Source: Monosiga brevicollis MX1 (Eukaryota). Taken from it: a DNA stretch of 64,000 nt. The notes under the pieces were generated by a model. That model was not told the DNA's origin. It worked only from the letters and a program-made list of their open reading frames with translations, and did no database searches. The stretch spans positions 81,858-145,857 of the forward strand of contig NW_001865079.1 in assembly GCF_000002865.3 (NCBI RefSeq). Reading direction: 5' to 3'. Both the position numbers and the translations under genes were made by a program. Shown piece after piece: positions 1,428 through 58,369 of the stretch; positions within the stretch are counted from its first letter, which is position 1, and every line of letters begins with the position of its first letter.

Positions 1428-3749
1428 ATGTCGGCGCGTCGTACTAGTCGGCGCCGGGTGCAGGAGACCCTGGGACCAGAGTTGATTGGCTTGTCGGCTG
1501 GTCATCGTGCACCCCGCGATGCCAAGCGCAAGAGTGATGGCTCGTACGACATGGATGACTTTTTCAGCGACCGCTCAGGTACTCGCGCGCGCGCGCGCGC
1601 CGTTGAACCTCGATCAGGGGCAGACAAGCCTTTGAGGCCGGCAACCCGTGGTCCACTTGCTCATGCCACTTTGAACGTTGTGCTTTGAACCTTTTAGAAC
1701 CCGTGGACGACTTGGAGGATAGCCAAGACCTCCCCTCCCCCGTGTCCACTGCTCCCCCCTCGACCCGAGCCGTAAGCCTGTTTGCCCTGCGCGTATGCCG
1801 TGCTTTACTCTCCCGCATCGCCTTCACCTTGATGCATCTGCCCCCTTGACTTGAACTTTCCATCTCTGACACACACGCACGTGCACACGCACACACTGCC
1901 TCATTGACGTATTCACACCCCGTGCCGCTCTCCGATCAGACGCTGGGAAAGAAGGGTCCAATCTCTCGAGTCACCTCGACGCCGGCCGTCTCCTCTCCCC
2001 TTTCTCGCCAAGGCAATAAGACACCTCAGTCTTTGCACAAGCCCAGCCCTGCCATGTCCAGTATCAAGCGCAGCTCGAAGCGTACCAGCCTAGCCCCTGG
2101 CACCCCCATGACACCCGAAGTGCCCCCGCCAGGTCAGGCGCCCTGCTCCTTACCCCTGCCTGCTTTTGTTGGTGGGCCCGGTGCCAATCTGAGAGTGGAC
2201 ATGGTTTAAGCTGCCAAAAGCACAATACACACGCACCTGACACAATGTCTATGCCTTGTCTCTCTTTTTAGATTTTGATGACGCACCGACTCCGGGGGCT
2301 CAGACGCCAGTGCAAGCAATCGACTTTGATGGCGGCGACGCCACCCCAACCAATGCGAGCCATCAAAGTGCCGCAGCTGAAGCTTCCCCGGCCCCCGCCG
2401 AGAGCTCGCAAACAGATAACGCGGAGGAAGAAGGCGCAACCGCGCCATCTGCAGGTGAGGTTTGGCCATCGCGCGGCCATCACCTCCAAATCGCTTCAGC
2501 GCCTCACGCTCGTGACTGCCGCCATCTTGCCGGTACAGCCAAAGCTTCTGCCAAACGGGCGCCACGGGCACGGGGCATGGACATCAACGTCATGAACATC
2601 CTTGAGCCACACGCTGAGGGTCGACCCCAGCGCAAACGCATTCCACCCACCCGCTTTTGGAAGGGTGAAAAACCCATCTACGTGCCTCGTACGCTCGACC
2701 AACTTGGGCCACCTCCCCTTCCGTGCCGTTTTATGGCCAGCATGACACTGTGCTGGCTGACGCGCCCGAACCCGCTCACTAACATTGCCATCGCGACATC
2801 GTTTTTGCTATCTACCGACGCAGATGAGGTGGATGGCCATCGTACTGGAACCATGACTATTGCAGATGTTCTGACCAAGCCGACGCCCGCCGTCGAACAC
2901 AAACGAGTATGTTGTTTAGACATCTGTCCTGAATCTAGTCCACGGCACTTTTTGCAACATGTGCTGACAACTGCCTGCATCCCCAATCTTTGCCAATCTC
3001 TTCTCCTCAGATGCGCAGGACAAAGCGAAAACTGACCAAGGCCGAGAAAATGGCTGCTGGGTCCCGCACCCCCGTCGTTACGCCCAAGCGCCCTCGGGGC
3101 GAACTCAATCCCATGGATGTGCGCGTGCTCGAATCACCTGAGATCCCGGTGATCGATTACACGTCCGACAAGCCAGATGAGACGGTACCATTGAAGGTGG
3201 CCATGACCTATGCCATGCAACAATGGGCCTCCACCCCCAAGAACCCAGGTCTCAAGTACAGCAAAAACTTTCAAGACCGTACCTGTGGCTGGTCGAGCGG
3301 CATGCTCGAACTTGACTTTGGTGCCTCCAAGGGAGAAGTGAGCAGCACCAACAACTTTATGGTGAGCTATTGACCAGCCTGAGCCTGATTCAATGCACCG
3401 CCTGGCTTTCTCATGCGCACATACTTTTGTCAACCTGCATCTGACACGCTGGACCGTATAGCTATTCTCCGTCCTTTCCGGCGTGGTCCAAGCCACCGTC
3501 AACGAGAGCAAAATCACCTTGGGCCCAGGAGGCACTTTTTTCGTTCCGCCCAGTACGTTGATCGGGAGACCATATGAGTCGAGTGGGGATTCAGTTTGGA
3601 TACTAGCGCGCGCGCTGCTGCTGCCTGTTCCCACGGGCAGGTCTCTCATCACATGTGGACGGTGTTTAGACAACAAATACGGCCTCATCAACCAAAGCGA
3701 TGATTGCAAGGTCATCCTCTCTTTTGCCAGTGTCCAGCTGAAGCGCTAA
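1428..3749 (+). CDS. CENPC: Centromere protein C (CENP-C/Mif2), multi-exon
   Basis: CENP-C motif RPQRKRIPPTRFWKGEKPIY (~2620-2680). C-terminal cupin domain (SSGMLELDFGASKGEVSS..LFSVLSGVVQATVNESKITLGPGGTFFVPP.NKYGLIN) split by GT-AG introns. Low-complexity S/T/P-rich N-terminus. Confidence 0.85.
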
Positions 3750-10569: not shown

Positions 10570-10959
10570 ATGATGTGGACAATCCCCGCCGGTTTCTTCC
10601 TCTGTGAGGATCACTTTGCTTCAGTGTGCCTGTCAAAAGCGAACACGCATGAATGTGGAATCAACAGCACTTGTCTTGATTGCTGATACCGAAGCTCAAA
10701 CATCGATTGTCGCGAACACACATCAAAAAAGCAAACGGACTTTCACAGTCGAAGAGCTCGAGGCCAATTTCTTTGTTTTTTTCCAAGCCCATACACACAG
10801 AGACGAGACCAAGAGGACGCACACACCCGACTCATCACCGGCCACGAAGTACGGGATGAAATTGCGAGCGTGCTCTGGTTTAAAAGGGGGTGGGGGTTGC
10901 CTGGAGCAAGCAGCGGATAACAAATCGAAGGTTGCAAATGCGGATGTTTCAGAGCATCA

Positions 10960-12742
10960 TCACGCAAGCAAGTCATGAAAATCCGCGGCACTCGACAAAC
11001 CATCACTCAAGTCAGGCAGATGATCCATACCACCCGACAAAACAATACTCAAGTCAGGCACAGTACCCGACAAATCATCACTCAAGTCAGGCAGATCATT
11101 CATACCACCCGACAAAACAATACTCAAGTCAGGCACAGTACCCGACAAATCATCACTCAAGTCAGGCAGAAGATCCATACCACCCGACAAAACAATACTC
11201 AAGTCAGGCACAGTACCCGACAAATCATCACTCAAGTCAGGCAGATCATTCATACCACCCGACAAAACAATACTCAAGTCAGGCACAGTACCCGACAAAT
11301 CATCACTCAAGTCAGGCAGATCATTCATACCACCCGACAAAACAATACTCAAGTCAGGCACAGTACCCGACAAATCATCACTCAAGTCAGGCAGATCATT
11401 CATACCACCCGACAAAACAATACTCAAGTCAGGCACAGTACCCGACAAATCATCACTCAAGTCAGGCAGAAGATCCATACCACCCGACAAAACAATACTC
11501 AAGTCAGGCACAGTACCCGACAAATCATCACTCGAGTCGATCAGATCATCGACAGGACCCGGTCGACCAACACGTAAGTCAGGCATTGCAGCTTGCCGGT
11601 CATTCAGCAAGTTTGCATTCAGACCTGCTGGCGGAGCATCGGCGTCTGGGTTTGCAGCGCTGGTAGCGACATAAAAATCGACATCGTTGTTTTCAACACC
11701 AAATGCTGACTGTTGCAAGTCAACATCGGCTAGAAGGACAAACTCTTTAATGTTAAAATGTGTCAGATCGATGTCGGGAAGGTTTTCCGAAACGAGTACT
11801 TCATGAGACAAATTGGGTACGTCCTGCCACACCAAGGCAGAGCAGCGCCGGACAACGAAACCTCGGTCACCATGGGGCCTCAAGAGCAACCAGTGATATT
11901 GCAAGTGGTTGTTAGCCCAGTCGAGCTGCTCGCGAAGAACATCCCCTTCCCCTTGAGGGGCCAGATAGTGGTTGTTGATATCAAGTGCGCCTCGGAGATG
12001 CATTTTAATGTCATTGGCGCTCGCATATTCTGCAGCACAGCCCAAAAACATATCAAGACGGGATTAGCCAACAGCTGATGCCCAAGACTTCAAAAACACA
12101 TGGCCTTACTTGCGATGATTCTCCACTGAGGCAGGCACAGATACATGTTCAGCATTCGTTGGCACAGCTAAAACATGAGTCGTGAGCACTTTGAAAAATC
12201 CTACAACTGAACAATGGTGCGTGCAACATACGCCTTGAGTGTCGCAATCGCATGGAGCCTCAGACTCGCGAAGGCAAGGGCAAGGCAAGTTGCCAGTTGC
12301 CAGCCGACGAATGCGCTGGAGAAAATTCAGACAGGCAGTCCGCAGGCCACTGTTGGTGTGGGTGCGGCCGTCAACCGGGCGGCCGTGCTGTTCGCCTTGA
12401 AGGCTGATGGTTTCATGGGGAAGAGGTTCAAATGCGCTTGGCAAGAGGCTGAACGGGCCAAGCGAAAGCTGATCATTTTTCTCGAGCCACACGTTGTCAA
12501 GCAACTTCAAACGCCGCAGAGCACCACTGCCTTGGCCTATCAAATTTGTAAGTCATCGGTGCGTGACGTCAGCTCGGACACGGCAGAACGAGATGGGCGG
12601 GTATTGGACGAGCGGGAAAGAGGAAATTTTTTTGGCGGAGAGGAACAAGAAAAGACGCACTCGGACCAGTGGCAACGAGGAGCACGGTCAGAAGCGCTTG
12701 CATCTGCTGCTCGCTCAAGTCATGGATCGATTGATAAGGCAT
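10960..12742 (-). CDS. Hypothetical protein with a Cys cluster and C-terminal 25-aa tandem repeats (3 exons)
   Basis: ATG at 12742 (MPYQSIHDLSEQQMQ...). In-frame GT..AG introns join it to ORFs 12106..12543 and 10960..12051. Cys cluster CPC-x7-CDC-x5-CCTHHC. Repeat PDLSDDLSGTVPDLSIVLSGGM(N/D)xL. Confidence 0.55.
11001..11525. repeat. 75-bp tandem repeat, 7 near-identical copies plus degenerate flanks
   Basis: Units start at 11001, 11076, 11151, 11226, 11301, 11376 and 11451. Each contains CTCAAGTCAGGCA twice. Variation is limited to a few bases (GATCATTC/GAAGATCC/GATGATCC). Confidence 0.95.
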
Positions 12743-25155: not shown

Positions 25156-28100
25156 TCAAATCCGGGTCTCGTCCTGAGAAGGCCAGGCCGTGCCCTGGAC
25201 ACAAAGATGGCTAAGCTCTGCACCCAGCTGCGCAGCCGTAGGTCGCGCTCCTGGTTGATTGTGCCAGCACTGCTGGAGGAGCCTACGCGACAGCTCGGCC
25301 AATGCAGGAATGGCATGTCAGTATAGGGGTAGATGAACGAACCCACTGCCACCTGGCAAAAGCTAGGACGCAGGAATCGCACCTTGTCAAAGGGGGAGCC
25401 AGGTCTTGAGGCAATCTCAGACGGTGACCCCGATCTAGGAAGAGACGCAGTTGGAGAGGGTCTGTGTCTGCATATGGAACTTGACCGGTCAAAACCTCGA
25501 ACGCAAGTACACCAAAAGCCCTACACGCCGTCAGCAAAAAGACAACACGTGTGATGATGACCAAAAGGAGCTCTTGCGCGCCGTGGACCGATGAGGGCCT
25601 GCAGGGAGCGCATCGTACCAGACATCGCTCGCAAGAGTATGCGGCTTGCCGTTGAGGCCCTCTAGGCTCATCCAACGAAATGGCAAGTCGCCGTTGGGCT
25701 GCGGCCGATAGTAATCTTCTTCAGTCTTTAAGCGGCGAGATACTAGGTGGAGAAACAAAAAGGAAAAAAAAAAAAAAAGCTGGTGTGAGTTTGCACGCGT
25801 CGCATGGAGGGCTGCACAACGCACGCTTTGATGTTCAAGGATATGGACTGAAGGCGCGTACAGCCAAAATCAGAGAGCTTGCAGACGTCCTCGGACACCA
25901 ACAAGGCGTTGCGTGCTGCCAGATCGCGGTGAATCATTGGTCGTTGATGCAGGTAGGCCAAGGCCGATGCCAGCTACACAAAGCAGCCGCATGGGTGAGA
26001 ACTTTCTTCAAGTCATAGGCAAAGTCAACCCTGTTCAGCCCACCCCCAGAAGTGGATTAAGGCACTAAGAGCCAGTACCTCCCCGCTGCCCTGGTGCTAA
26101 GGATGAGAGCGGTATCCGATAAGAGCAGGAAAACTCACCTGGCAGAGCCAACTGAGGCGCTGGGCCTGCGGAGTACCTGAACCGGGGCCGTCGGGAGCTC
26201 GTAAATACTCGCGCAGTGGACCCAAGGGCGCGAGCTCAAGCACCATGGCCAGGCGTTGTTCCACAAGGGTGCAACCGTAAATGGCAATGATGTTTGGATG
26301 CTCCAATGTGTGAAGCAGCAAGGCCTCGCGCAGGACGGCGTCAGTCTGTGTCCCAAAGCACGATGGCCCCACAGGCAGCATGCATGTTGGTTTGTAAGAC
26401 AATCCATGTGAAAGAGTCCCGACAACTTCTTGGTTGAGCCGATTCCACCTGGAGCCCGGAGCTTGACGTACCTGATTCTTGCTCTGGATCAAGTGTGCAA
26501 TCTTGATGGCCACCTGCGTGGGCACCATTGCTCCACATGAAGATGCCTGAGGGTCAAGGTCAAAGCCAAGGTCATTCATGCAAACCGGTGGGACTGATGC
26601 TGGGATTTGCAAACCCCAGAGGACGACGAATGCATGCATCAAACGCCGAGTGGATTTGCCATCTCTTCAGTGGAGCGCTTACCAACCTGCACAACGCGCC
26701 CAAAATTACCGCTACCCAGCTCGTTGCCCAAAATAAAGTTGTTGCTACGAGAACGTTTCCGCGGGCGCTAAGATGAGCTTGCTGTCGGGAGAAGAAGAAG
26801 GAGATGCAACCCGGACGGGAAGGCTGCCAAAAGAAATATCCACGGCCAAGTGCGCCAGTGCCTTACCTTGGGAGAAAAACCAGGCGTTTGCTATCGGCAC
26901 CAAAGTCGAGGGCCATGGCGGCCAAAACATCCTCAACGTCGCGTTGCAAGGCAGATTGACGCCATTGACGACGTCGGTGACGCAGCACGAGGAGAGCGAG
27001 TAGGCTTCCGGCCACCAAGACCACCACGCTAGCCGCAATGGCGGCCACGATGACCCCGGCTTGGTGCGTTGAGGAGGGAGAGAGGGTCAATCCGGGCTCG
27101 GTGGTGAGGTGATGCGGCACGGAACTAGAAGCAGTGACGGCCGGGGAGAGAGTGCTTTGATCCCCCATGTTGATGGCGACATTAAGCACGAGGGTTAGAT
27201 TGTCGTCTGTTGTGAGGGTGACGGTGCCCTGGGTGGAATTGCTCAAAGCAAACATGACCTGCATGCCTGCGCGATCAGAGCTCTCCGTGACAAGCCCCGA
27301 GGAGAGGACTTGGAGGATTTCACGAGTGGGGTAGAAGATGGAATCATCAAAGCACCGTTCAAAGGGTAGCTCGGCGGTTAGGTCGGGCAGCATGAGAACG
27401 ATGCCACGGAGAGAGGAGATGTTGAAGATGGTGCCGGAACATGGCTGAAAGAGTGCAACGGCCAGATCTGATGAACTCGTGGGGACGCGAACCATCATGT
27501 CACAAATATGTTCGTCCCAGCCATTGGCGCACTGGGGAATGCCATCGCAAATTTGATCGGGGCTGGCGAGTGCGGTGAGATTGAGAGAACCGAGCACGGG
27601 TCCGTCGGGATCGTATTCAGGGCACTGGATGGTGGTGACACGAGTTCCCACGACACAAGCGCCAGAGCAGTTGACGCGGCCACAATCTCCAGGAATGGGG
27701 GCAAGGACGCAATCACAGTTTGCAGTGGTCGGGAAGTTCAGGGTGTATTCGGGCCCGCACGTCTTGGGAAACGTGGCGGCAAAGGTGTTGGGCCGGATCG
27801 TCTCCAGGGGGTTGCCTTGAAGGTATATGGCACGCATGTGTGGAATCATGTTGGGAATGATGGCAGAGTTGAGGTAGCTGATGGTATTGAAGCTTAGGTC
27901 CAGAACCTCCAAAGCACGTAGGCTGCGCATGGAGAAGACTGTGAGCCAGGAATGAGAGAGGTTGAGGTAGCGCATGTAGGGCACGCTCTGAAACCCCTCG
28001 CCCAGGCTTTGTATCTCTTGGCAGGGCAGGTGAACATGTTCAATGTCGGCGGAGAGGATTTGCGGCAGGACGCGAAGAGCTGGTGGCTGTGTGTTTGCAC

Positions 28101-28488
28101 AGCGGTCGCAGACGAGGCTGCCGCCCGCGGTGGTAGAGTTGCCGGGCGTGTAGGTGCAGTTTTGTGCCCTATATGGGGGGCACATGTCTTGGCTCGTTAG
28201 GTCTGTGGGCCAGACCCAATGGCCGTCAAAGCACTCCAAGATTGGGGAGGCCATGGCTCCGTCGGTTAGGCAGGTGCTGTTGCACACGTGGCCATGCGCG
28301 TAGGCGTACAGCAGGGTACCCTGGCACGAAGTGCGACCCTGGAGCGAGTTGGTAAACAGCAAACGCCCCTCACATGGCCGACAATCACCCGGAACGGCAC
28401 ACCGCCGAGCCCCACCAACCCTTGGCACGCACGCCACGGTCAGCAGGAGCAAGGTCCAAAGCCATCTCCCACCCACCACTGCCCGCAT
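25156..28488 (-). CDS. Receptor tyrosine kinase: signal peptide, Cys-rich/LRR, LDLa, TM helix, TK domain; multi-exon
   Basis: LRRs (YLNLSHSWLT, LDLSFNTIS, IYLQGNPL), LDLa QICDGIPQCANGWDEHIC, TM followed by RHRRR. Kinase motifs LGSGNFG, VAIK, HRDLAARN, DFG, LPFRWM, SDVW. Predicted end QDETRI*. Confidence 0.9.
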
Positions 28489-28793
28489 CACCCCAGCGCT
28501 TGCGGCGGGCACCATGTCAGGTCGCAACACCCGACGACCAAGATCTGAGCTCTCTACCCGCAACAAGAACACACCGTCGTGAGCGACCAGAAGGCCCCTG
28601 CGATACCCAACACCGCCCCTTCAACCCCACACCCACAAGCCACCCTAGCCCCAACAACAAGACTCACCAAGAGCCCGAGGCGCAACGGAGAACAGGAAGG
28701 GCCGCTGCCCTTTTTTTTTATTGTACCCCACGTACCGTCCACCAGCTCAATGTGCATGTGTGTGTGTGTGTCAACAAATACACACACAACCCC

Positions 28794-29059
28794 CTCTCTC
28801 TCTCTCTAAATCTCTCTCTCTCTCTAAATCTCTCTAAATCTCTCTAAATCTAAATCTCTCTCTCTCTCTCTAAATCTCTCTCTCTCTCTAAATCTCTCTC
28901 TCTCTCTCTAAATCTCTCTCTAAATCTCTCTAAATCTCTCACTCTCTAAATCTTTCTAAATCTCTCTCTAAATCTCTCTCTCTCTAAATCTCTCTCTCTC
29001 TAAATCTCTCGAAATCTCTCTAAATCTCTCGAAATCTCTCTCTCTCTCTCTCTCTCTCT
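28794..29059. repeat. Compound (TC)n-TAAA satellite
   Basis: Variable TC tracts repeatedly interrupted by TAAA or GAAA. Confidence 0.9.
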
Positions 29060-29508
29060 TGCAATCATCAAGAGTGAGAACAAGTCCTTCTTCGCTTTAT
29101 GGACATCACATCATGTCAATCCATCACATCGTATGAAGTAGCCCATAGATAGCACCACCCGCCCGAGGGGAAGGTTGCGACGGAGTGGTCGGTCGGCCAA
29201 GAGGTGCGTTGTTCTCATCCCGTGAGGGGCGAGGTTTTGGGATGAGGCTTTTGTAATCGTCCGGGGCAAACCCAGACGCACGCCAACGGATCGCCTCGGA
29301 ATTTGTTGATAGCATCCATTGACCTCTGTGAAAAAAAAAAAGCTTCTAAGGCTATCAGAAGTGCGAGGCCGGTCGGTGAGTGGTGATAAGCATGCCTGTC
29401 AAATTTCAAGTCAATTCATCCTGGAACCGCAGGCTCCACTCCCAGAGCTGTCCGGGGATTCATCGGGGTATGCATAGACATCCACAAGCTCGATCTCGCC
29501 ATCTTTTG

Positions 29509-30303
29509 CTAGAGCGAGGTCTCGGTCGAGCCATCCCCTGTGAAGGTCGGCGCCGTCTGAGATTTTCAAAAGACGCAATACGCATGGCAAGATGAGCGTC
29601 GCCGAGGAAAGCACAACGCAACGGGGCAACTTTCCACTTGAAACAGGTATGCCTACCCAGGCCAGTGCGGGGCCCGCAACGAAGAGTTGGAGCAGATTCT
29701 CAAAACTCGGCCGGGATGCCGCATTGAGTTGCAAGCATCGAGTCATGATTCTAAGCCAAGGCGGTCACGGTGAGAGTGGTTTTACTTTCATCCCAAATCA
29801 GAGTCGAAGGGGCATGCGTGACACGAACTGTTGGACGAGTCGTGGCGCTTGCGGGGGCAGCGGAAGGGTGTCGCCCGCCTTTAGACGAACGATGATCGTC
29901 GCTATCCAAACATTGGGCGGGTCGGTGAGTCCAAGACACGGGTTGGCATTTAAAATGTCCCCGCACGCAGACTGCATTACACACCGACATCACAGCCCGC
30001 CCATGGCACGGCTCCTTGCGTGGCCAGCTCCCAAGCCAAAACGCCATATGACCATACATCAGACTGCTCCGAATAGCGCCGCTCTACCAAGCACTCGAGC
30101 GCCATCCACCTACCGAGTATGTGACTTGAGCACCGGACCATGTCCGTCAACAAGCTGCAACCAAACTGCGCCAAGTCTTCAAACATACCGAAACGGCATA
30201 TCCTCATCTGAGACGCTCTTGTAATAATCAGAGCTCGGCAAGACCCGTGATACTGCAACCCAGGCACCGCACGATCAATGCACATACACGCGCGCACACA
30301 CGT

Positions 30304-30337
<34 letters not shown>

Positions 30338-30541
30338 CTTGACGTTTGACCAAGCATTGCTTGCGACAACTCACGTCCGAAATCAGCCAGTTTGCAGACC
30401 AGCGGCATGAGTGAGGTGACCAGCACGTTGCGGGCTGCCACATCGCGATGAATCACGCCACACTGTGCCAAATGTGTCAGAGCCTCGGCCATCTGCAAGA
30501 ACCGCGGAGAAGCAGAGATAATATGAATAACAGAGATAGTG

Positions 30542-30589
<48 letters not shown>

Positions 30590-33275
30590 GTGGCCATTCC
30601 GCTGCCTAAATGGCCGGTCCGAGGAAAAGACAAAGCCAATCGTTTCCAAGGTACCTGAAGAAGGGCAATTTGGATGTTCGTGGGGCTCAATGGTTGACTT
30701 CGGACACGATCGCGCAAGTTGCCATGAGGTGCCCACTCCAACACTGCCCCCAAATGCGACTGTCCTCGCGATTCATCACTGAGGAAAGTGGCACACATAT
30801 TAACAATGTTGGCTGAGCTTCTCCCGCAACGCACATGCACCACGCGTGTTATTTATTGCTGCGTCAGCGACTGGCGACGGTCAACACGTACGGGGAGAGG
30901 GAAACACCGTAGAGGCTGATGATGTGTTGATTGCCCTTGAAGTTCTGCAGCAGCATGATCTCACGGAGCCAGGACAAGATCTATGCAGCAATCAATCGCC
31001 AAACCATCCTCGATCACCACGACATGCCGCCACAACGATAAAACAAGCAGGGATGCACATTGTACGCGAGCAGACGTCACGCTGATGAACCTTACCGTGA
31101 CGCTGCCCTCGGCACACTGCTTAAGGGCCGCCGGCTGGGGGCCCGAGCCCATGTCCAGCATGACTTGATGCACAACGCTAAAGTGGCCACGGCCGACGAC
31201 ACGCTGGATGGCAAGATCCTCCTCATCGATGAGCTCCAGCGGAGTCGGGTTGAGCTGTGGATAGGCTTCGTGGAAATCCCGACGAGCAGCTTGCATGAGG
31301 AGAAGCCACTGCTCCTCCATCTCGCGATGCTGGCCCTGCCGTCGACGACGAGCTGCCCAGATCTGCCAAGACACGCCCATCAGCAACAGCAAGAGCACTG
31401 AGGTAGACATGGCGGCCAGCAAGACGGTCGAGGCGCCCGATGATGAAGCAGTGCTGGTCGGCAAATTGGTGGTAGAGGACACTGGGGTATGGGTAGACAT
31501 GGCCGTTGAGGCAGCTTGATCGCTGACCAGGCTTGCGTATAGGGCGTCAAACGTGACACTATCTAGATCCGTTGGCGTGGCCGTCTCATTTGCGGCCGGG
31601 CTTCCATCAATACCCAGCATGTTGCCGGCCGCAAGCCGATAGACACTGGTCAGAGAGAGGTCGTTGGCCAGGTTTTCAACGGTTCGCAGCAGGCCGTGCA
31701 TATACACGTAGGGATAGGATGTGTTTCGCAGCAGGATGAACCTGTCAACATGTTTTATGACGAGGGCAGCCACAGCGTGGATGTTGCGAACAGCCCGTGA
31801 GAGGAACAGGTATAGCCTGACCCGGTGCAGGATGGGGCGTTTAGGGGCGAGGGCAGAAGAGGGGGCGGGATCGAATCAAGCGCCCGGTTGGCCGAGGAAT
31901 GCACGTACCTTGCAACAGCGAGGCCGTCGTGAACTTCAACGGCATTCCAGTTGCGGATGACGCCACGCCACCAGTAGCAGCCTGGGGTCCGACCCGTGAT
32001 GACGCCGCTGGCAATCGTAAAATTGAAGGCGGAGACGCAGTCAAAGTTGGGCCCACTGGGTCCGCCAGCACTGGAGAAGGCAAACTCCAGGGTGAAGGAG
32101 CAGCCAGCCTCGTCTTCCGCGGAGGGACAATCGGGGGTGCCATCACAAAGCTGGGTGGGGGAGATGGGATCGGAGGAGGAGAGACAGGTCATGGGTGGGG
32201 TGACGGGAGGGGGGCAGAAGGAGGCATTGATGTAGGCTGGTGCGTAGCAGCTGCAAGTGACATCGTAGCCAGAGCGTGGGTGAACATTGCCAGCACAGTT
32301 GACGTTGATGGAAGCCAGGGTGAGGGGCTTATTTTCAGGATCGGGATGCTGTCTGAGATATGAGGTGTTGAGGATGCGCCACCACGTATCAAAGTCGACG
32401 GCATCGCCAGCCAGGGGACCAAGAAGAGCCATGTCGAGGCGTCGGAGGCTACCGGACTGCGGAAGAAGGGACTTGTCAATGACCGTGGGAGCAAGTCTAA
32501 CGACGGCGCGATACGTTTGGAGAGAGGGCCACGATTCGTTGAGGGAGCGGAGGGCTTCGAGGTCGGGGATGTAAAAGAACAGATCGGTGAGGCTGGGGAA
32601 AAGGGGCTTGGGCTCTTGCCAGATGAGTGCCGGGGGAAAGTTATCCCAGTAGCGCAGGGTTTGCAGATTGGGATAAAGAGCCAAATGAGAAAGGTTTAAG
32701 GGAATTTGTGTTGGAGTGCCCCGCACGCTCCAATAGCGCAGAGCCGGGGCTGGGGGCAAGGGGGCATTGTAGAGTTGACAATCGTCAATGTCCAGAAACT
32801 GAAGCGCGGGGAGTGTGGGAAGCGCGAGTTCAGAGGTGTGTGCGACACCGCGGATGAGCAAGGCCTGGAGATGAGCAAGGCCCTGGAGATGGTCATACAA
32901 ACGGAGGCTGTCGGTCGTGTTGGCGTAAAACCCGAGGGCCAAGGATCCGAGGTCGTGGGGGAGGCCGAGTGGGACTTGATGGACAAACTCGCAAAAATAA
33001 TCATAAGTAAAGCCAAGCAGCTCGATGTTGGCTTCACAGGCGGGCTGATAATTGAGGCAGGAGCCGTGCCAGGTGTTGTTGATGCAGGTGAGGGAGACGC
33101 TGGCCTGATCGTGGCAGCGCACCGTGCAGGTTGTGGTGCCTGGCGGGCAGGTTTGCCCGTCAAAGCGCGGGGGCGACTCGGGACAAAGCGTTGCCGACGG
33201 CAGGACCACAACCGTGAGCAGCAAGAAGAGGCCCTGCCAGGTGACGGACAGCTGATGCGCGGGCCGTGGCATCAT
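29509..33275 (-). CDS. Receptor tyrosine kinase, paralogous architecture (SP, Cys-rich/LRR-like, LDLa, TM, TK); multi-exon
   Basis: Signal peptide, LRR-like [11 protein letters not shown], LDLa [20 protein letters not shown] followed by RRRR. Kinase motifs [35 protein letters not shown]. Predicted last exon [15 protein letters not shown]. Confidence 0.9.
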
Positions 33276-43650: not shown

Positions 43651-43925
43651 GGTGTGACGCAACATGGAATCGGGGACATGATGTGAGGCAACACTTGGTC
43701 ATGGCGAAGTGTGCACATGTGTGGGAATACAACGTTGTTGGACGTTGGCGATGTGTGGGTGGGTGTGGTGTGATAGGGTGTGGTGCGGGTTCATTGCATG
43801 ACGTTGCAGATCGGCAGAGAGGTGTGTGTGCCACAGTGGCAAGATCAGCCCAACTCAAAAGTGTAACAAATCACACTTATAGCCGCTGGTGCAAGCTGCT
43901 CAAGGGCTTGCATAAGGATGAAAGC

Positions 43926-44003
43926 TGGTATCTAAAACTTACCTCTGTTAGTTTAAATTTTTCATCTGACATGTTAATTTATATTACATGTCTTTAAAAT
44001 ATA
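43926..44003 (+). repeat. Left copy of ~78-bp AT-rich direct repeat flanking the giant ORF
   Basis: TGGTATCTAAAACTTACCTCTGTTAGTTTAAATTTTTCATCTGACATGTTAATTTATATTA... matches 56407-56485. Confidence 0.92.
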
Positions 44004-44744
44004 AAGTCGGCACAGGTAGCTTCAGCCCGGCGAGCTGTTTCGGCGACTCGCGCGGACTGGACTGGCGCCTCGGAGCGTGAAGGCATGATGTGCAAAGAGC
44101 GCGCCTGGCGTGCATGTTGAGGCAATAAGGGCATCTACAGTGGAACGGATTCCTCCGAGATACATTCCAAGCAGCTGACAGTTCAAGCCCACCCGTCCCC
44201 ATCATCATTCACTGGCTTGCTTGTATTGTGTTCGCGTGCTTGTAAAACACAGTGAGTGTGCTTGTATCGGCGTGCTTCTCTGTCTGCATTGAAGATCGCA
44301 AGCCATTTGTCTTCACGCAACGCGCGTGTAAAAGTGCTTGCGTCTTTGATCGATTTGTTGGATGTGTACAAAGGTCAGTCGGGGGCGAGCGCTGCTACTT
44401 GGAGTGAGACGGGCAACCGCGATCGGGTAAGTAGACCAGCTTGTTCATCTCGACCCACCTCTCTTTTCCTTTCCTGTCTTTTGCTTCTTCTTCATCATCT
44501 TCTCTCATTCTCAAGCTGTGTACCTCTTTAGACGACAAGCGATCAGACGCCGGTCGTGTCAGACAGTGAAATTCTCAAGTGCTGCTCCCCAAACCGGCCG
44601 TGCAATCGCCGACACTACAGGCAACTGACAGTGAGCGCTTTGCAAAGCCTGCCATGAGCGATCGGCAGCCCTCTGGCAACCCCTCAGCGCACTTCATACA
44701 CCTGGCTCACTGCTGCATTTGCTCCGCCTGCCTCCTACCCAGCA

Positions 44745-47700
44745 ATGCCCGAAGTCGCCGCCGACAAAGGCAAGAACGGACGGCTGTCCAACGCCGCCAA
44801 GGCGGGGCATCGCCGCCACGTCTACCAAAACCCCAAGACCTCGAGGATCGAAAGGGGCTGGATGCAGCAGGAGCTTAATCGTGGCCGCACCTTCAACACT
44901 ATGCGCAACCTACCCGGCACCCACATCGACCACACGAGAAACCATCCTGATTTCTGTCGTACCCAATGGGCGTCAGACAACAGTAGCCGTGGTGCTCGTC
45001 TTGGCAAGGAAGGTGAAGCCATCCGCACCCGTGCACAGCCCAAGGCGCAAACAACGGGATGGAAAGGCCCACGCGGCGGCGGCGGCAGCAGCAGCAGCAG
45101 CGGCATTGGTAAAAGTGTCGGTGCTGGCACTCGTAGCGCTATGCAGGCAGCAAGCCGCACCGCCGCCCGCCAGACTGCACTGCGCACAGGCGCACGGATT
45201 GCTGGCAGATGGCTTGCGGGTGGTGCCGCGCGCGTGCTTCTGTGCAGCGTGCCTGGTGGCGCATTTTTCTCGGCCGCGCTGCTGGCCGTCGACCTCTACA
45301 TGAGCTACTACAACACTTGTGGGGGCGACGATGGTGGCCCCGGTCGTGGAAATCGCGAGATGGCCCGCGATCCGGGTGGGGTAGCCGTTCCTCGTGGAAA
45401 TCTGGAGGCCTTCAGCAAAGCCCCAGAACTTGCCGCCGACGATGCCGCTGCCGTGCTGGCCATTCTTATACCCCGTGCGGAGGCGGAGCTTCAAGGTCTT
45501 CCCTTCAGCTCTCGCACGGGTGACCTGCACTCCGCCGTGGTGCAGATCGTTGTGGCAGAACTCGCCACTAGCATCTACGTCGACAACGCCTACCCGTTTT
45601 TTTCCCTTCATTTCAACAAGGATGCCTGCCTTTACCCCGTGCTGCACCCGCTGCTGCGCGAGACGCTCGTGGGCCACGTCATCGCCACGCTGGACTACTA
45701 CCTCAAGGGGTTCCTCAACGGCGGCGTGTACCCCGTTGAATACCTGATGAACTGGCACGAAGGCAGCTGCGGGGTGCAGCGTGAGGAGCTTAGGCAACAC
45801 GTTGTTGACCTCCGCACCTTGGTGGCAACCCACGGTGGCGAGGGGGTTGCGTATAAGTCACTTCTCGAGATGCTGGCTGAGGCTGGCGTCGCAGACCTTG
45901 TAAGAGGGACCGATCAGCCCGAAGAGGCCACCAGCACCGGCAAAACCACCGACGCATCGGCCAGCAAGTTCCGCACCAGTTTTCGCATTATCGGGACCCT
46001 GGAGCGAGCCGAGCGCGATGGTGACGTCGTCGCCTTGGTGCCCGGTTTTCGTGTCGAATACACGGTGGAGACCACACCTGCTTATCAGAAGGTGTTAGAC
46101 GCTCATCTTGCTGAGCATGGCGTGTACCCAGATGGCTATGCCACTGTGCAGCGTGTGTATGCGCGCGCGGCTCGGGCTGCAGAGCAAGTCATGCCCCGCA
46201 TCCCTCTCTTTGCCCCCTACTTTGCCATGCTCCGCATCATCACAGCCTGCTCCGCACTGGTGACGTCGCTTCGGTCGACAGGGAAACTGCCACTCCTGAG
46301 TCTGCCAGTCGATGCATTCCGCACGGGGGCCAACTGCAAGCTGACACGCCTGACACCTCCTTTGTATCCCCCCCTGCCCGTGCGCTACTACAAGCAGCAC
46401 GTCATTTCGATACGTCTGCTAGACCTCGTCAACCAGCTGCGTGCCAACGACAACCTTTCTGCTCTCACGCTAGACTCGCGTCACACACGAGCCTTTGAGC
46501 CCTCCAAGCTGGATCGTGAGATGGAGAGGCTTTCCTTACGCGTCTTTGAACCAATGGCCGACGTTACTTCCGCCGTCCAAGCTGCTGTTGCTACACTGGC
46601 CCAGCGCCAGCTGCCAAGCGAAGTGGACTTTGCCAGTGTCGACCTGGACGCTCTCCAGACGCACGTTCAAAATCAGTTGACTGCAGTGGCCGACGCTTGG
46701 CCAACAGTGCTGCTGCCCCGAATGATTGTGGATACAACACGGCATTTACTGGCCACGTCCCTCTTTGATGACGAGCCGTCACAGCTGCCAAACGATGGCG
46801 GTGTGGACATTGAAGCTCATGAAAAAGCTGTCAGGGCCAGAATGCCCAGCAAAGAGGTGACGGAGCAGCTACTGCAGCCATTCCTGCGCCGCCTTTCGAC
46901 CATAGACACAGTGCCTGACCGCAGCACTGCCGTCCGCCAGCATTTTGCCGATGAACTCATCACGGCTTTCCGAGCGTCGGCACTGTTTCCTCCGTGCAAG
47001 TTTCGCGAGGAGAGCCGCTTGCGAAAGCAAATTTTGCACACGCAAACTCAGTTGCGTGAAGAGCTCGCCAAAATTGATGTTTATCAACGCAGCATGGAGA
47101 AGGCTACCGAGGAGTACCGGACATCCCAGCTTGAGGCGCTTGCACAGGAGGTCCAGGATCTACATGCAGGCTTTGACCGTCGGGTGCTCGCCGTGCCTCC
47201 CGGCTGTGCCGTTGACCCAGCCGCAGTACAAGCCTTTCGGCAGTGGCTAGCCGATCAGGAACGACAGTCGCGTCAGCAGATTGAGGAAAGAGTGCAGCGC
47301 CAGGTTACAAGCAATGCCCAGGCTTTGGATGACGCTCGTCGCGATGTCAATCAGAAGGTGCAGAAGTTCATCCAAGGAATCGAACATACACTGCAGGTGG
47401 AGCCAGAAAAGCGACTCATGGGCATCCTCTCGGAAAAAGCTTCAGCATATTCATCTCAGCTTGCGGATGGAATTGTCCAGCTTCATGCCCGCCAGTCGGC
47501 TATCATTTTCCTTGACGACAAGACGATAAAGGGAAGAGTCGTGTCTCGCTGCTTGGGCGTGGCGGATCGGAGCTTCCTCAATGGGCATCAGGAGGATCCG
47601 AGGATCATAGGGGGCTGCGGGGTCAGCCTTGAGGACCTAGAGGACAGCCCGCTTTTAGCCACCACCCTATCGACCGCTCAGGCACAACACCTGCGCGTAA

Positions 47701-56949: not shown

Positions 56950-57025
56950 CCCAATGGGGGGTTTGTCCCCTTCGAAGACAGAAATCCTGTCTTCGAAGCC
57001 AATAGGACAAACGCCACCCATTGGG
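56950..57025. other. Long inverted repeat / hairpin
   Basis: Perfect 12-bp inner stem CTTCGAAGACAG/CTGTCTTCGAAG with a 5-nt loop. Outer stems GTTTGTCC/GGACAAAC and CCCAATGGG/CCCATTGGG. Confidence 0.8.
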
Positions 57026-58369
57026 TGCGGAGGTTTGGTCTCTGGTCAAAAGCCCAAGTCTTGCCACTGGCCGTCCGAGTTGGATTCGCAACACGCCCGT
57101 GCCGCCGCTCGACTCTTGTGTCATGTTGGAACGAGAGAACAAGAGCCAACCTTTTTTTTTCATAGTCTTGACTCGCGCCAAACCAAGCGCACACCATCAA
57201 GCAAGCGCCCCACACCAAAAAAACACAGGCTTTCATCATGATAATGTTGTTATCACACTCCCTCCCTCCCCCTTTACGACTGAATCACTGAGACCAGACC
57301 AGAGCACGGCACCGCACGAGAGCACGCCCGTCGTCGAGTCGAGTGCATCATGTCACCCCTGTGGTCATCTCAGAACAGAAAAAAGTCCTGGGGGTTCCTT
57401 TGATTTTTTCCTTGGAATCATCATCTGCAGAAACCTGCATGGCAGACTGCACAAACCTTGAGGCACGCTACAGTTAATTCCTATGGGGACCAGGACTCTA
57501 CCGACACAACCCTGCAGATCACGTGCAGGAAGGCAACGATGGGGGTGTGGAAGGTGTTGCACAGGCTACGACTCGCAGTGTAACACCCTTTGCTTTCCAC
57601 CGGCACACAATGTGAGAGCTGGGTCAAGGTCAAGAGAGGTTGGCGGCACACACATTGTGTTCTCACACACACACTCAGAGAGAGCGCAAAGCAAAGGCAA
57701 AGCAAAGCAAGGCAAAGGTTGTGTTGTGTTGTGTGTTCATTATGATAAGGATCACAATGCCATTGGACCCCCTCCTAACTTGCACAAGCCGCCCCCGCCC
57801 CAATGGCAGCCTGATCTGATGGGTGAGGACTCGACACACGAGGGCACTGTCTCCGACGGGCACAGAGACGTGACCCAAGCCCAAGCGGCCCACATCAGGG
57901 GGCCCCAAGAAGGGCAGCGTGCAAGGTTAGGGAACAAGAAGGGGGGTGAACCCCATAAAGACCCTTTGACTTGCACACCGCCACCAGAAAACCACGAGAG
58001 AGCGACAGAGAGAGAGAGCGACAGAGAGAGAGAGAGGAGTGATACAAGATGCAACACACCTTTGTTACCTTTGCGTATGTACGTAACAAACAGCACAGAA
58101 CCGCATCTTGCGCGCTGTCCACCTTCCACTTGGCAAGGAAGTTACTCGCTACGACGCGCGGCTTGCTTCCGTACCCGACTCGTTCCAGGCGACGGTCGTG
58201 CTCTGGCTCTGGCTGGACGACTTGGAAACAGGGGGTCGACAGCCAGACAGACAGCCAGCCAAAGCATCAGAACACGAGTCATAGGCGTGCGTGTACATGG
58301 AATGGCAACCAACCAACCCGCTGTGCCCCAACACACACACACACGCATGGTGCGATCCGATCCGATACG

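What the first reader, a model, noticed from the sequence alone, without database searches (positions are those of the whole stretch)
44745..55781. 3678-aa eukaryotic protein fusing a SecA motor to ankyrin repeats and a toxin-like tip
Seen: order is nuclease-like tip, Gly/Ser linker, hydrophobic helix, ~750-aa unknown domain with coiled coil, long ankyrin array (~48060-51990), Pro/Lys spacer, SecA ATPase (~53790-55250). Established: SecA is the bacterial/plastid preprotein translocation motor and works with SecYEG. This organism shows no sign of a plastid, and the protein has no obvious signal peptide. Inference: the SecA motor has been repurposed to unfold, thread or release the N-terminal effector after the ankyrin array senses a target. 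That would be a one-protein sensor-motor-effector defence or antagonism system, analogous in logic to NLR/STAND proteins but with a different NTPase.
Basis: partly seen in the sequence, partly recalled or inferred. Interest (0 to 1): 0.9.

Follow-up and report, generated by a model that had tools for sequence, protein, structure and literature searches.

The report
Swappable-toxin carrier with its own SecA
This spliced, polyadenylated eukaryotic gene fuses into one giant protein a two-gene unit of chlamydiae, legionellae and similar bacteria, namely a carrier with swappable toxin-like tips and a second SecA motor, and the motor likely threads the tip out to attack rival microbes.

Summary
The ORF is real and nuclear. 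Transcript contigs show two GT-AG introns in its leader and a poly(A) end. Its ankyrin and SecA domains are confirmed. The 'unknown' part holds an unnamed domain led by an IGGV-type motif, with 344 other protein clusters. In bacteria this domain sits in a ~2300-aa gene (variable tip, IGGV domain, stalk, ankyrins). A second SecA gene is adjacent or fused in 31 of 60 loci; 20 were too short to tell. That SecA forms its own clade. Tips include Ntox28, AHH nuclease and ADP-ribosyltransferase-like domains. In chlamydiae the tips swap along the tree and the upstream HEAT/LRR gene follows them, as immunity genes do. SecA-linked carriers lack signal peptides; one SecA-less clade has them. Dictyostelids carry the same fusion. 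Best reading: a polymorphic toxin system with an N-terminal toxin and a dedicated SecA motor, also held by eukaryotes. The transport mechanism is inferred. The window's own tip has no detected homologue, so 'nuclease' is unproven. The NLR-like sensor idea has no direct support.

The parts
43922..43986 (.). AT-rich 66-bp direct repeat, upstream copy (95% identical to the downstream copy); the pair brackets the transcript
44006..44426 (+). 5' leader exon 1 (start = first base of a transcript contig, not a mapped start site)
   Evidence: run X3
44427..44531 (+). GT-AG intron 1 (105 nt) in the leader
   Evidence: joint in contigs of X3 and X6; donor GTAAGT, acceptor TTTAG
44532..44630 (+). 5' leader exon 2
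44631..44742 (+). GT-AG intron 2 (112 nt), ending 2 nt before the ATG
44745..55781 (+). 3678-aa ORF: tip, IGGV domain, stalk, ankyrins, SecA-like ATPase
44745..45074 (+). Variable tip (aa 1-110) in the toxin position; His/Asp/Asn pattern HIDH...DN; no homologue found
   Evidence: position from relatives; singleton among 193 tips; HNH-like lead only, 0.85-0.86
45066..45110 (+). Gly/Ser linker
   Evidence: sequence
45234..45290 (+). Hydrophobic helix, aa 164-182
45357..46424 (+). Unnamed conserved domain led by PGGV (aa 210; IGGV in relatives), with the FFSLHFN and LDYxxKG motifs; predicted helices plus a long beta hairpin
   Evidence: AlphaFold2 pLDDT 82, pTM 0.84; no Pfam or NCBIfam family
46425..47603 (+). 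Stalk of variable length between the two GG motifs, with a charged segment at aa 760-900 (helical or coiled-coil nature inferred)
47604..47621 (+). Second conserved motif, IIGGCG (aa 954-959)
   Evidence: xxGG[CAV]G in 134 of 165 long relatives; G-G-x-G invariant in 38 rows
48069..52004 (+). Ankyrin array, 22 motif starts, degenerate in the middle
53019..53382 (+). 11 x 33-bp Pro/Lys/Ala repeat spacer
53526..55715 (+). SecA-like ATPase: Walker A GEGKS (aa 3058), DEVD (3163), motif VI (3484), reduced PPXD, predicted scaffold helix and terminal helical hairpin without the LRxxxQxDP finger-tip motif
55782..56077 (+). 3' UTR ending at a poly(A) site
   Evidence: X3 loose end of 16 A at 56077; X3, X4 and X6 end at 56073-56077 while DNA-like X2 runs on
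56403..56468 (.). AT-rich 66-bp direct repeat, downstream copy

Best explanation
This expressed nuclear gene is the fused, one-protein form of a bacterial unit made of a carrier with a swappable N-terminal toxin-like tip and its own SecA-type ATPase, and that ATPase likely threads or unfolds the leaderless carrier so that the tip would reach and poison rival or ingested microbes. Shown: the architecture, the transcription and splicing, the carrier-SecA linkage, the separate SecA clade with intact ATPase motifs, toxin domains in many tips of relatives, and tip swapping with a co-varying upstream gene in chlamydiae. Inferred: that the upstream genes are immunity proteins (about 0.85); that the SecA paralog works on the carrier as a dedicated export or unfolding motor (about 0.65); that the window's own tip is still an active toxin, probably a nuclease (about 0.5); and that the target is bacteria in food vacuoles or invading symbionts. 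Which membrane and which channel are used is not known. The lost finger-tip motif suggests a channel other than ordinary SecY.
For: Linkage: SecA-like gene fused in 3 and adjacent in 28 of 60 genome loci, absent in 9 with room, 20 too short; fused in 3 and adjacent in 13 of 45 metagenome loci, 3 none, 26 too short (these partly repeat the genome loci). All 25 of 400 Chlamydiota genomes with the SecA-like C-terminus are among the 51 with the IGGV domain (kinship and training overlap not removed). Second copy beside a housekeeping SecA in 5 of 5 genomes; own 51-row clade, SH-aLRT 95; Walker A and DExD in 31 of 32 locus ORFs, the other being half of a split gene. The model aligns to B. subtilis SecA over residues 14-773 (Z 37.3, rmsd 6.3, 615 aligned). 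Tips: of 40 genome tips, Ntox28 in 9 (7 over cutoff), Scabin/pertussis-S1-like in 2 (under cutoff), lipase in 1, none in 28; of 23 metagenome tips, Ntox28 in 4, AHH in 1, Scabin-like in 1, HTH in 1, none in 16; Scabin-like over cutoff in P0032. In 27 chlamydial-type loci with an upstream gene, no upstream class occurs with two tip classes. Sister carriers differ in both traits (L040/L034, L025/L091, L093/L100, L031/L037, and L108/L109 with an identical domain). For Ntox28, 6 independent pairs go 5.5 the same way and 0 the other (p 0.03-0.06). Upstream genes are HEAT- or LRR-like, both listed as immunity types in PMC3482391, and occur in tandem in L016, L020 and L040. 44 of 45 SecA-linked carriers lack a signal-peptide-like start; 6 of 9 carriers with no SecA nearby have one and lack IGGV, and 5 such genomes show a single SecA-family ORF. 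The window's nearest relative, L081, lies on a eukaryotic contig (spliced Rac-type gene next door) and has a different, AHH-like tip.
Against: The window's tip has no detected homologue and scores no better than shuffles against the dictyostelid tips (63 of 188 shuffles as high). 28 of 40 and 16 of 23 tips have no Pfam match. Most Legionella-type loci show no same-strand upstream immunity candidate, and neither does the window, whose flanks are CRAL-TRIO and CBM21 genes. The signal-peptide trade-off rests on a crude test and on one clade (9 rows), so it is one event. The co-variation test reaches p<0.05 only in some pairings and for one tip class; the other three classes have 2-3 pairs. By sequence, only 67 columns after motif VI align to housekeeping SecA. 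The terminal hairpin has pLDDT 60-70, and AlphaFold may lean on known SecA structures. No channel gene was recognised in the loci. L081's tip is interrupted by a frame break, and its AHH match is weak (E 0.003 among 194 tips).
Confidence: 0.55

Rival explanations
1. One-protein intracellular sensor-motor-effector. The ankyrins would bind an invader molecule, and the SecA-like motor would pull the tip free inside the same cell, killing or arresting it in an NLR-like way.
For: Fused in cis in this eukaryote and in dictyostelids; no signal peptide; no immunity gene beside the window gene; ATPase motifs intact; SecA finger-tip motif lost.
Against: In bacteria the tip swaps together with an upstream gene, and one clade uses a signal peptide instead of the SecA partner. 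Both fit export better. No result shows sensing by the ankyrins. The NTPase is C-terminal and of SecA type, not a central STAND domain.
Confidence: 0.2
2. In bacteria the SecA paralog is only a chaperone or unfoldase that feeds the carrier to another secretion machine (type III or IV). The eukaryotic fusion is a domesticated descendant whose tip has lost toxicity and which serves another cellular role.
For: The window's tip is unrelated to any tip collected. Other eukaryote-like members have a ubiquitin-like domain or no recognised enzyme at the tip (P0083, P0166), and two dictyostelid SecA parts look incomplete (P0051 lacks Walker A, P0026 lacks motif VI). Chlamydiae and legionellae have such secretion machines (recalled).
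Against: The window keeps every scaffold motif and all ATPase motifs in an unbroken 11-kb frame. Its nearest eukaryotic relative has a different, nuclease-like tip, so tips still differ among eukaryotic members.
Confidence: 0.2
3. Bacterial contamination or misassembly, or a silent recent insert.
For: The coding region is intronless in an intron-bearing neighbourhood; most named relatives are bacterial; a direct repeat brackets the gene.
Against: Two spliceosomal introns join the leader to the ORF start, and a poly(A) tail ends it. A DNA-like contig spans the 3' junction, 53400-57650. GC is 60%, with four-fold GC3 0.60 against 0.58-0.89 in nine host ORFs and 30-54% GC in the 60 bacterial loci. 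AU tests reject grouping with three bacterial groups.
Confidence: 0.01

Closest known systems
Polymorphic toxin systems (Zhang et al. 2012, PMC3482391; passages read)
   Same: Constant scaffold with exchangeable toxin domains (Ntox28, AHH, ART-like, lipase) and an adjacent co-varying HEAT/LRR gene in chlamydiae.
   Different: The toxin is N-terminal and the immunity candidate lies upstream. The scaffold is an unnamed IGGV domain plus ankyrins. The linked machine is a SecA paralog, which is not among the export routes in the parts of Table 1 I saw. That paper names 'SecA-like helicase-related domains' only as variable C-terminal domains of Amoebophilus effectors, and lists no immunity protein for Ntox28.
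Accessory SecA2 systems (TIGR03714, TIGR04221, TIGR04397, NF012136)
   Same: A second SecA beside the housekeeping one, encoded next to a very large putative substrate (SecA2 biology recalled).
   Different: Scores far below every SecA2 cutoff (169-214 bits against 725-1100). No SecY2 or Asp genes were recognised among the neighbours. Substrates lack signal peptides. The motor is often fused to the substrate, and it occurs in eukaryotes.
Eukaryote-type SecA-domain giants of Wolbachia wBol1_1091/1092, insects and protists (Duplouy et al. 2013, PMC3639933; EAM SecA in PMC5062602; passages read)
   Same: Long proteins with a divergent SecA domain shared between endosymbionts and eukaryotes; that paper notes SecA-domain hits in Polysphondylium pallidum, Tetrahymena and Salpingoeca.
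   Different: The passages read describe no IGGV domain, ankyrin carrier, variable toxin tip or immunity gene. Those sequences were not in my trees, so kinship to this clade is untested.
Giant actinobacterial toxins with SecA-like and MFS domains (Kaur et al. 2021, PMC8195603; one passage read)
   Same: A SecA-like ATPase fused to toxin domains and predicted there to aid their secretion.
   Different: Different scaffold (GT4, HTH arrays, MFS) and different taxa; no ankyrin carrier, and no two-gene form is mentioned.
NLR/STAND sensor-effector proteins (recalled)
   Same: N-terminal effector position, a repeat array and an NTPase in one chain.
   Different: The NTPase is of SecA type and C-terminal, the repeats are central, and bacterial relatives are split into two genes with immunity-like neighbours.

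Membership tests
Polymorphic toxin systems | Constant scaffold with exchangeable toxin domains | tested here: met
   193 tips fall in 41 BLAST clusters; Pfam toxin hits; tip classes scattered on the scaffold tree, 17 changes on 31 rows
Polymorphic toxin systems | Toxin domain at the C-terminus | tested here: not met
   Tips lie N-terminal to the IGGV motif
Polymorphic toxin systems | Adjacent cognate immunity gene that co-varies with the toxin (bacterial members) | tested here: met
   Chlamydial-type loci only: 27 loci, no upstream class shared by two tip classes; Ntox28 independent pairs 5.5 of 6. Neutralisation was not tested.
Polymorphic toxin systems | Immunity gene beside the window's gene | tested here: not met
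   The flanking genes are CRAL-TRIO/PDZ and CBM21
Polymorphic toxin systems | Orphan toxin cassettes or immunity arrays | tested here: inconclusive
   Tandem upstream copies in L016, L020 and L040, and an opposite-strand ART-like gene in L011; not surveyed
Polymorphic toxin systems | The window's tip is a catalytic toxin domain | tested here: inconclusive
   No family over cutoff; HNH-like lead under 0.9; no homologue
Housekeeping SecA | NBD1/NBD2 motor with Walker A, DEVD and motif VI | tested here: met
Housekeeping SecA | Preprotein cross-linking domain | tested here: met
   SecA_PP_bind 41 bits, over cutoff, but only profile positions 47-110 of 110
Housekeeping SecA | Helical scaffold, wing and two-helix finger | tested here: inconclusive
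   No SecA_SW hit; 67 columns align by profile; the model has a long helix and a terminal hairpin at pLDDT 60-70 that align to the end of SecA structures
Housekeeping SecA | Finger-tip motif LRxxxQxDP and full-length equivalog score | tested here: not met
   Motif present in 5 of 5 housekeeping copies and absent from the 18 aligned C-termini; TIGR00963 219 bits against a cutoff of 800; separate clade
Housekeeping SecA | Drives translocation through SecYEG | not testable with these tools
   Needs reconstitution
Accessory SecA2 | Score over a SecA2 family cutoff | tested here: not met
Accessory SecA2 | SecY2 or accessory Sec genes in the locus | tested here: inconclusive
   None recognised among 34 neighbours scanned of the 113 listed
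NLR/STAND | Central STAND NTPase with C-terminal sensor repeats | tested here: not met
   SecA-type ATPase at the C-terminus, ankyrins central, no STAND hit
NLR/STAND | Ligand-triggered oligomerisation that activates the effector | not tested
   No test run
Wolbachia/insect eukaryote-type SecA (wBol1_1091/1092) | Groups with that clade in a SecA tree | not tested
   Those sequences were not retrieved; none of the 20 phage rows shown (of 23) was a Wolbachia record, and the one fish SecA-like hit, P0171, was dropped for short coverage

The most novel reading that the evidence does not exclude
A so far undescribed secretion route for polymorphic toxins. A dedicated SecA paralog pushes a leaderless, N-terminal toxin across a membrane without a signal peptide, perhaps through the carrier's own IGGV domain rather than SecY. 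At least two eukaryotic lineages (this one and dictyostelids) keep it as a self-contained, single-gene antibacterial weapon with still-changing warheads.
Probability: 0.3. Interest if true: 0.93.

Novelty: new variant of a known kind. Interest (0 to 1): 0.8.

Why it matters
SecA is known as the motor of bacterial and plastid protein export, and long SecA-domain proteins in eukaryotes and endosymbionts have been noted since 2012-2013 without a tested role. This locus ties one such clade to a toxin carrier with exchangeable tips, in 51 of 400 Chlamydiota and 18 of 204 genomes of Legionella's order (IGGV domain counts). It gives a testable function for an orphan SecA clade. It adds a candidate export route to polymorphic toxins, offers a candidate immunity protein for Ntox28, and suggests how symbionts of protists fight over a host. 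It also shows eukaryotes expressing the whole apparatus as one gene, which can be tested by knockout in dictyostelids.

Tried and rejected
Fold searches for the IGGV domain model gave nothing clear. Foldseek found no match at E<=0.001 in the PDB or the viral library. VIA-align's best was Z 4.1 (rmsd 5.0, 80 aligned), with weak SPLUNC1/latherin rows at Z 3.4-3.7. This does not show a new fold. The PDB sequence search had one hit, at E 0.41. The ESM Atlas gave no usable hit for aa 201-1052. The complex prediction of the IGGV domain with the IIGGCG segment gave no verdict (score 0.00, alignments not used). The run finder listed no holder on record as RNA; the RNA reading of X3, X4 and X6 rests on the joints and the poly(A), and all three come from one study. 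X1 and X2 may be the window's own source. No single contig spans the transcript, and the patchy X7 was not used. No homologue of the tip was found in proteins of 194-2000 aa, viral contigs or collected tips; DUF3565 was rejected as sub-cutoff. The IGGV domain was not found in viral contigs or plasmids. A recent transfer from a named bacterial group was rejected by AU tests: Holosporaceae p 0.009, Legionellales p 0.009, Chlamydiae p 0.023 (groups named after seeing trees). The 9-row 'eukaryote-like' set is starred under LG+G4, but under the mixture model the corresponding 7 rows have only 73. The direction of transfer is therefore open. A transposase downstream of the gene was considered: no Pfam hit. 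My own ankyrin profile found only 4 repeats and was replaced by a motif count. The N-terminal extension of stand-alone SecA-like proteins matched several fused relatives, but the window was not among the rows shown. Four look-ups of earlier findings returned nothing. Ten paper searches found no description of this system. Additional File 1 of PMC3482391 is held as only 1,214 characters and may list such architectures, and most subscription journals are not covered.
Full report
OBSERVATION. The ORF at 44745-55781 (+) encodes 3678 aa without a stop. Pfam finds ankyrin repeats (Ank_2 E 2.6e-53) and three SecA domains over their cutoffs: SecA_DEAD at aa 2952-3327, PP_bind at 3220-3290 and P-loop at 3384-3460. 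It finds nothing for aa 201-1052 or 2453-2952, and no SecA wing/scaffold hit. A motif count gives 22 ankyrin-like starts between aa 1109 and 2369. The 33-bp repeat has 11 copies. Walker A GEGKS, DEVD and motif VI are intact.

IT IS AN EXPRESSED NUCLEAR GENE. The neighbours are eukaryotic: a CRAL-TRIO domain split over two exons, a CBM21 protein and tyrosine-kinase-type receptors. Of four runs laid on 43660-52950, contigs of X3 and X6 skip two GT-AG introns (105 and 112 nt) and join the leader to the ORF start, while X1 reads through them unspliced. Of four runs laid on 53400-57650, X3, X4 and X6 end at 56073-56077, X3 with a run of A, while X2 spans the whole stretch. The RNA-like runs are from one study, and no contig spans the entire transcript. 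The spliced leader has an in-frame stop 22 codons before the ATG. GC (60%) and four-fold GC3 (0.60) fit the host ORFs (0.58-0.89), whereas the 60 bacterial loci have 30-54% GC. Contamination is ruled out.

THE UNKNOWN PART IS A CONSERVED CARRIER. A search with aa 195-1050 found 345 clusters at 50% identity, the window's own included, at E<=0.001. Nearly all listed matches cover aa ~265-570. An [ILVP]GG[VI] motif precedes the domain in 143 of 152 proteins, and LxxSYN precedes that in 164 of 214; the window has PGGV and LYMSYY. A second motif, xxGG[CAV]G, follows a stalk of variable length in 134 of 165 long relatives, and ankyrins follow it. AlphaFold2 models the domain confidently (pLDDT 82, pTM 0.84), as helices with a long beta hairpin. 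No Pfam, NCBIfam or PHROGs family names it; the fold searches are told under Tried and rejected. A scan of species-representative genomes gave 60 loci. 44 of them have titles naming Chlamydiota (32), Legionellaceae (8), Coxiella, Holosporaceae, Rickettsiales or Francisella; the other 16 have broader or other labels. That these groups live inside protists and animals is established knowledge. The domain is in 51 of 400 Chlamydiota and 18 of 204 genomes of Legionella's order (floors, many genomes incomplete).

THE SECA IS A DEDICATED PARTNER. In the 60 loci, a SecA-like ORF is fused in 3, adjacent in 28, absent in 9 with at least 4 kb on each side, and untestable in 20. In 45 metagenome loci the counts are 3, 13, 3 and 26 (some repeat the genome loci). 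Five of five genomes checked also hold a housekeeping SecA (394-441 bits, against 131-187 for the linked copy). In a tree of 63 rows (6 of 69 dropped for short coverage), the linked copies and the window form a 51-row clade (SH-aLRT 95) apart from housekeeping SecA; no plastid SecA was included. All 25 Chlamydiota genomes with the linked-type C-terminus are among the 51 with the carrier. Chance alone would give about 3, but the genomes are related and some helped build the profile. Walker A and DExD are kept in 31 of 32 locus ORFs. After motif VI the sequences diverge: 67 columns align to housekeeping SecA, and the finger-tip motif seen in 5 of 5 housekeeping copies is missing from 18 aligned C-termini. 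Yet the model (pLDDT 80) has a long scaffold helix and a terminal hairpin at pLDDT 60-70. It aligns to B. subtilis SecA residues 14-773 (Z 37.3, rmsd 6.3, 615 aligned) and to the substrate-engaged structure 6itc (Z 36.7, rmsd 4.1, 623 aligned), well above DEAD-box helicases at Z ~22. All NCBIfam SecA and SecA2 models score far below cutoff.

THE TIPS ARE SWAPPED TOXINS, WITH IMMUNITY-LIKE PARTNERS IN CHLAMYDIAE. Of 40 genome tips, 9 match Ntox28 (7 over cutoff), 2 Scabin/pertussis-S1-like profiles (under cutoff), 1 a lipase and 28 nothing. Of 23 metagenome tips, 4 match Ntox28, 1 AHH, 1 Scabin-like, 1 HTH and 16 nothing. Fused P0032 has a Scabin-like tip over cutoff. 193 tips fall in 41 clusters. 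Among 35 loci with the chlamydial-type leader, 27 have a same-strand gene directly upstream, and no upstream class occurs with two tip classes. On the scaffold tree (31 rows; 4 left out for short domains), sister carriers differ in both tip and upstream gene: L040/L034, L025/L091, L093/L100, L031/L037, and L108/L109, whose domains are identical. For Ntox28, 6 independent pairs go on average 5.5 the same way and none the other (p 0.03-0.06); the three other classes have too few pairs. The upstream genes are HEAT-like beside Ntox28 and LRR beside another class. PMC3482391 lists both repeat types as immunity proteins and none for Ntox28. Legionella-type loci mostly lack such a gene, which would fit a host-directed use there (inference).

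SIGNAL PEPTIDE OR SECA, NOT BOTH. By a crude test, 44 of 45 SecA-linked carriers have no signal-peptide-like start, and all have IGGV. Of 9 carriers with no SecA nearby, none has IGGV and 6 have such a start. Of 30 undecided loci, 25 are IGGV-positive without one and 5 are IGGV-negative with one. Five genomes of the short form show a single SecA-family ORF of housekeeping size. The short forms are one clade, so this is one natural experiment. It is still the best hint that the paralog replaces ordinary Sec targeting.

EUKARYOTIC MEMBERS AND ORIGIN. The window's nearest relative is L081 (43-44% identity, same PGGVAVPRG variant; sister at 99/98). It lies on a contig with an intron-bearing Rac-type gene (read from the translation). 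Its tip is different and AHH-like, with a frame break (E 0.003 to L113's AHH tip). Acytostelium subglobosum and Polysphondylium violaceum carry the carrier fused to SecA parts, and Heterostelium album carries the carrier. These three form a separate trio, so at least two eukaryotic lineages hold the system. AU tests reject grouping the window with Holosporaceae, Legionellales or Chlamydiae (p 0.009, 0.009, 0.023). The base of the tree is unresolved, so neither a donor nor a direction is claimed.

THE WINDOW'S OWN TIP. It is a singleton and no closer to the dictyostelid tips than shuffles are. The ESM Atlas ranks HNH clusters first among named families, at 0.85-0.86, which is a lead only. Its position and its HIDH...DN pattern make a nuclease plausible, not shown.

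HOW IT MOST LIKELY WORKS. Shown: architecture, expression, linkage, the separate SecA clade, toxin tips and co-varying upstream genes in relatives. Inferred: the SecA paralog binds the leaderless carrier and uses ATP to unfold or thread it; the tip is released near the IGGV motif and enters a rival cell; bacteria protect themselves with the upstream gene; and the eukaryote, with motor and cargo in one chain, aims it at prey or invading bacteria. I put this at 0.55, an intracellular NLR-like switch at 0.2, a domesticated non-toxic role at 0.2, and artefact at 0.01.

COMPARISON WITH WHAT IS KNOWN. It works like a polymorphic toxin system but fails the C-terminal-toxin criterion. It resembles accessory SecA2 export but fails those families. 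Divergent SecA domains shared by Wolbachia, insects, Polysphondylium, Tetrahymena and Salpingoeca were reported in PMC3639933 (passages; supplement passages). SecA-like domains in Amoebophilus effectors are mentioned in PMC3482391 (passages), SecA-like domains in actinobacterial toxins in PMC8195603 (passage), and phage WO SecA in PMC5062602 and PMC9203015 (passages). PMC4256840 lists one Legionella SecA DEAD-like protein of unknown function. PMC11342252 and two preprints had nothing relevant. Ten searches found no description of the tip-IGGV-ankyrin carrier with a linked SecA. The main supplement of PMC3482391 could not be read and may bear on this.

VERDICT. New variant of a known kind, interest 0.8. 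The transport mechanism and the activity of this gene's own tip remain to be tested.

Noticed in passing
window 43922-43986 and 56403-56468: A 66-bp AT-rich direct repeat (95% identical) brackets the transcription unit and occurs nowhere else in the window; it may mark a past insertion or duplication.
   Followed up: partly
window 53400-56077 against 45114-52950: Contig depth over the SecA end is several times that over the carrier part in X3 and X6. Contigs cannot rank this; 3' bias or a shorter SecA-only transcript remain open.
   Followed up: no
L013-L060 and L091-L118, chlamydial-type carriers, first ~130 aa: A conserved leader ending in WPxLxA(A/E)G precedes the toxin domain (77 of 193 tips match the pattern). 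It has no Pfam match and could be a processing or secretion signal.
   Followed up: partly
L027:7906-9567, L029:7991-9694, L032:16322-17895, L034:673-3014, L039:1903-3491: Two further recurring genes (~250 and ~290 aa) lie next to the SecA-like gene in Parachlamydia-type loci, with no Pfam family over cutoff; they are candidates for the missing membrane part.
   Followed up: partly
L038, L043-L046, L049, L051, L052, L101, L104, L106, L115, L119: A short form (~730-1100 aa where complete) with a signal-peptide-like start, a CdiA-like tip (motif recalled), no IGGV and no SecA partner seen.
   Followed up: partly
P0051, P0026, P0042: Acytostelium subglobosum, Polysphondylium violaceum and Heterostelium album carry the carrier, fused to SecA parts in the first two. 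They form their own trio (100/100), apart from the window. The tips of P0026 and P0042 have an HNH/GHH-like His pattern (recalled; no Pfam hit).
   Followed up: partly
P0162, P0165-P0168 clusters: Very N/I/K-rich versions with many members on ~10-kb contigs, with fused SecA; members P0206 and P0212 have a cysteine-protease-like tip (motif recalled). Possibly another eukaryotic lineage.
   Followed up: partly
L011:6838-8307 (-): A stand-alone gene with Scabin-like and colicin-pore-like hits lies head to head with the carrier.
   Followed up: no
G002, G004, G001 (L071-L073, L075, L078-L080): Further long ORFs (1400-3500 aa) with weak SecA_DEAD hits exist in the same genomes, so there are more SecA-like giant families.
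   Followed up: no
window 26100-33275 (-): Two adjacent receptor-like genes with extracellular LRR or LDLa parts and tyrosine-kinase-type domains; they suggest a holozoan host (inference).
   Followed up: partly
window 10938-12051: A 75-bp tandem array of about 8 copies is open in several frames on both strands.
   Followed up: no
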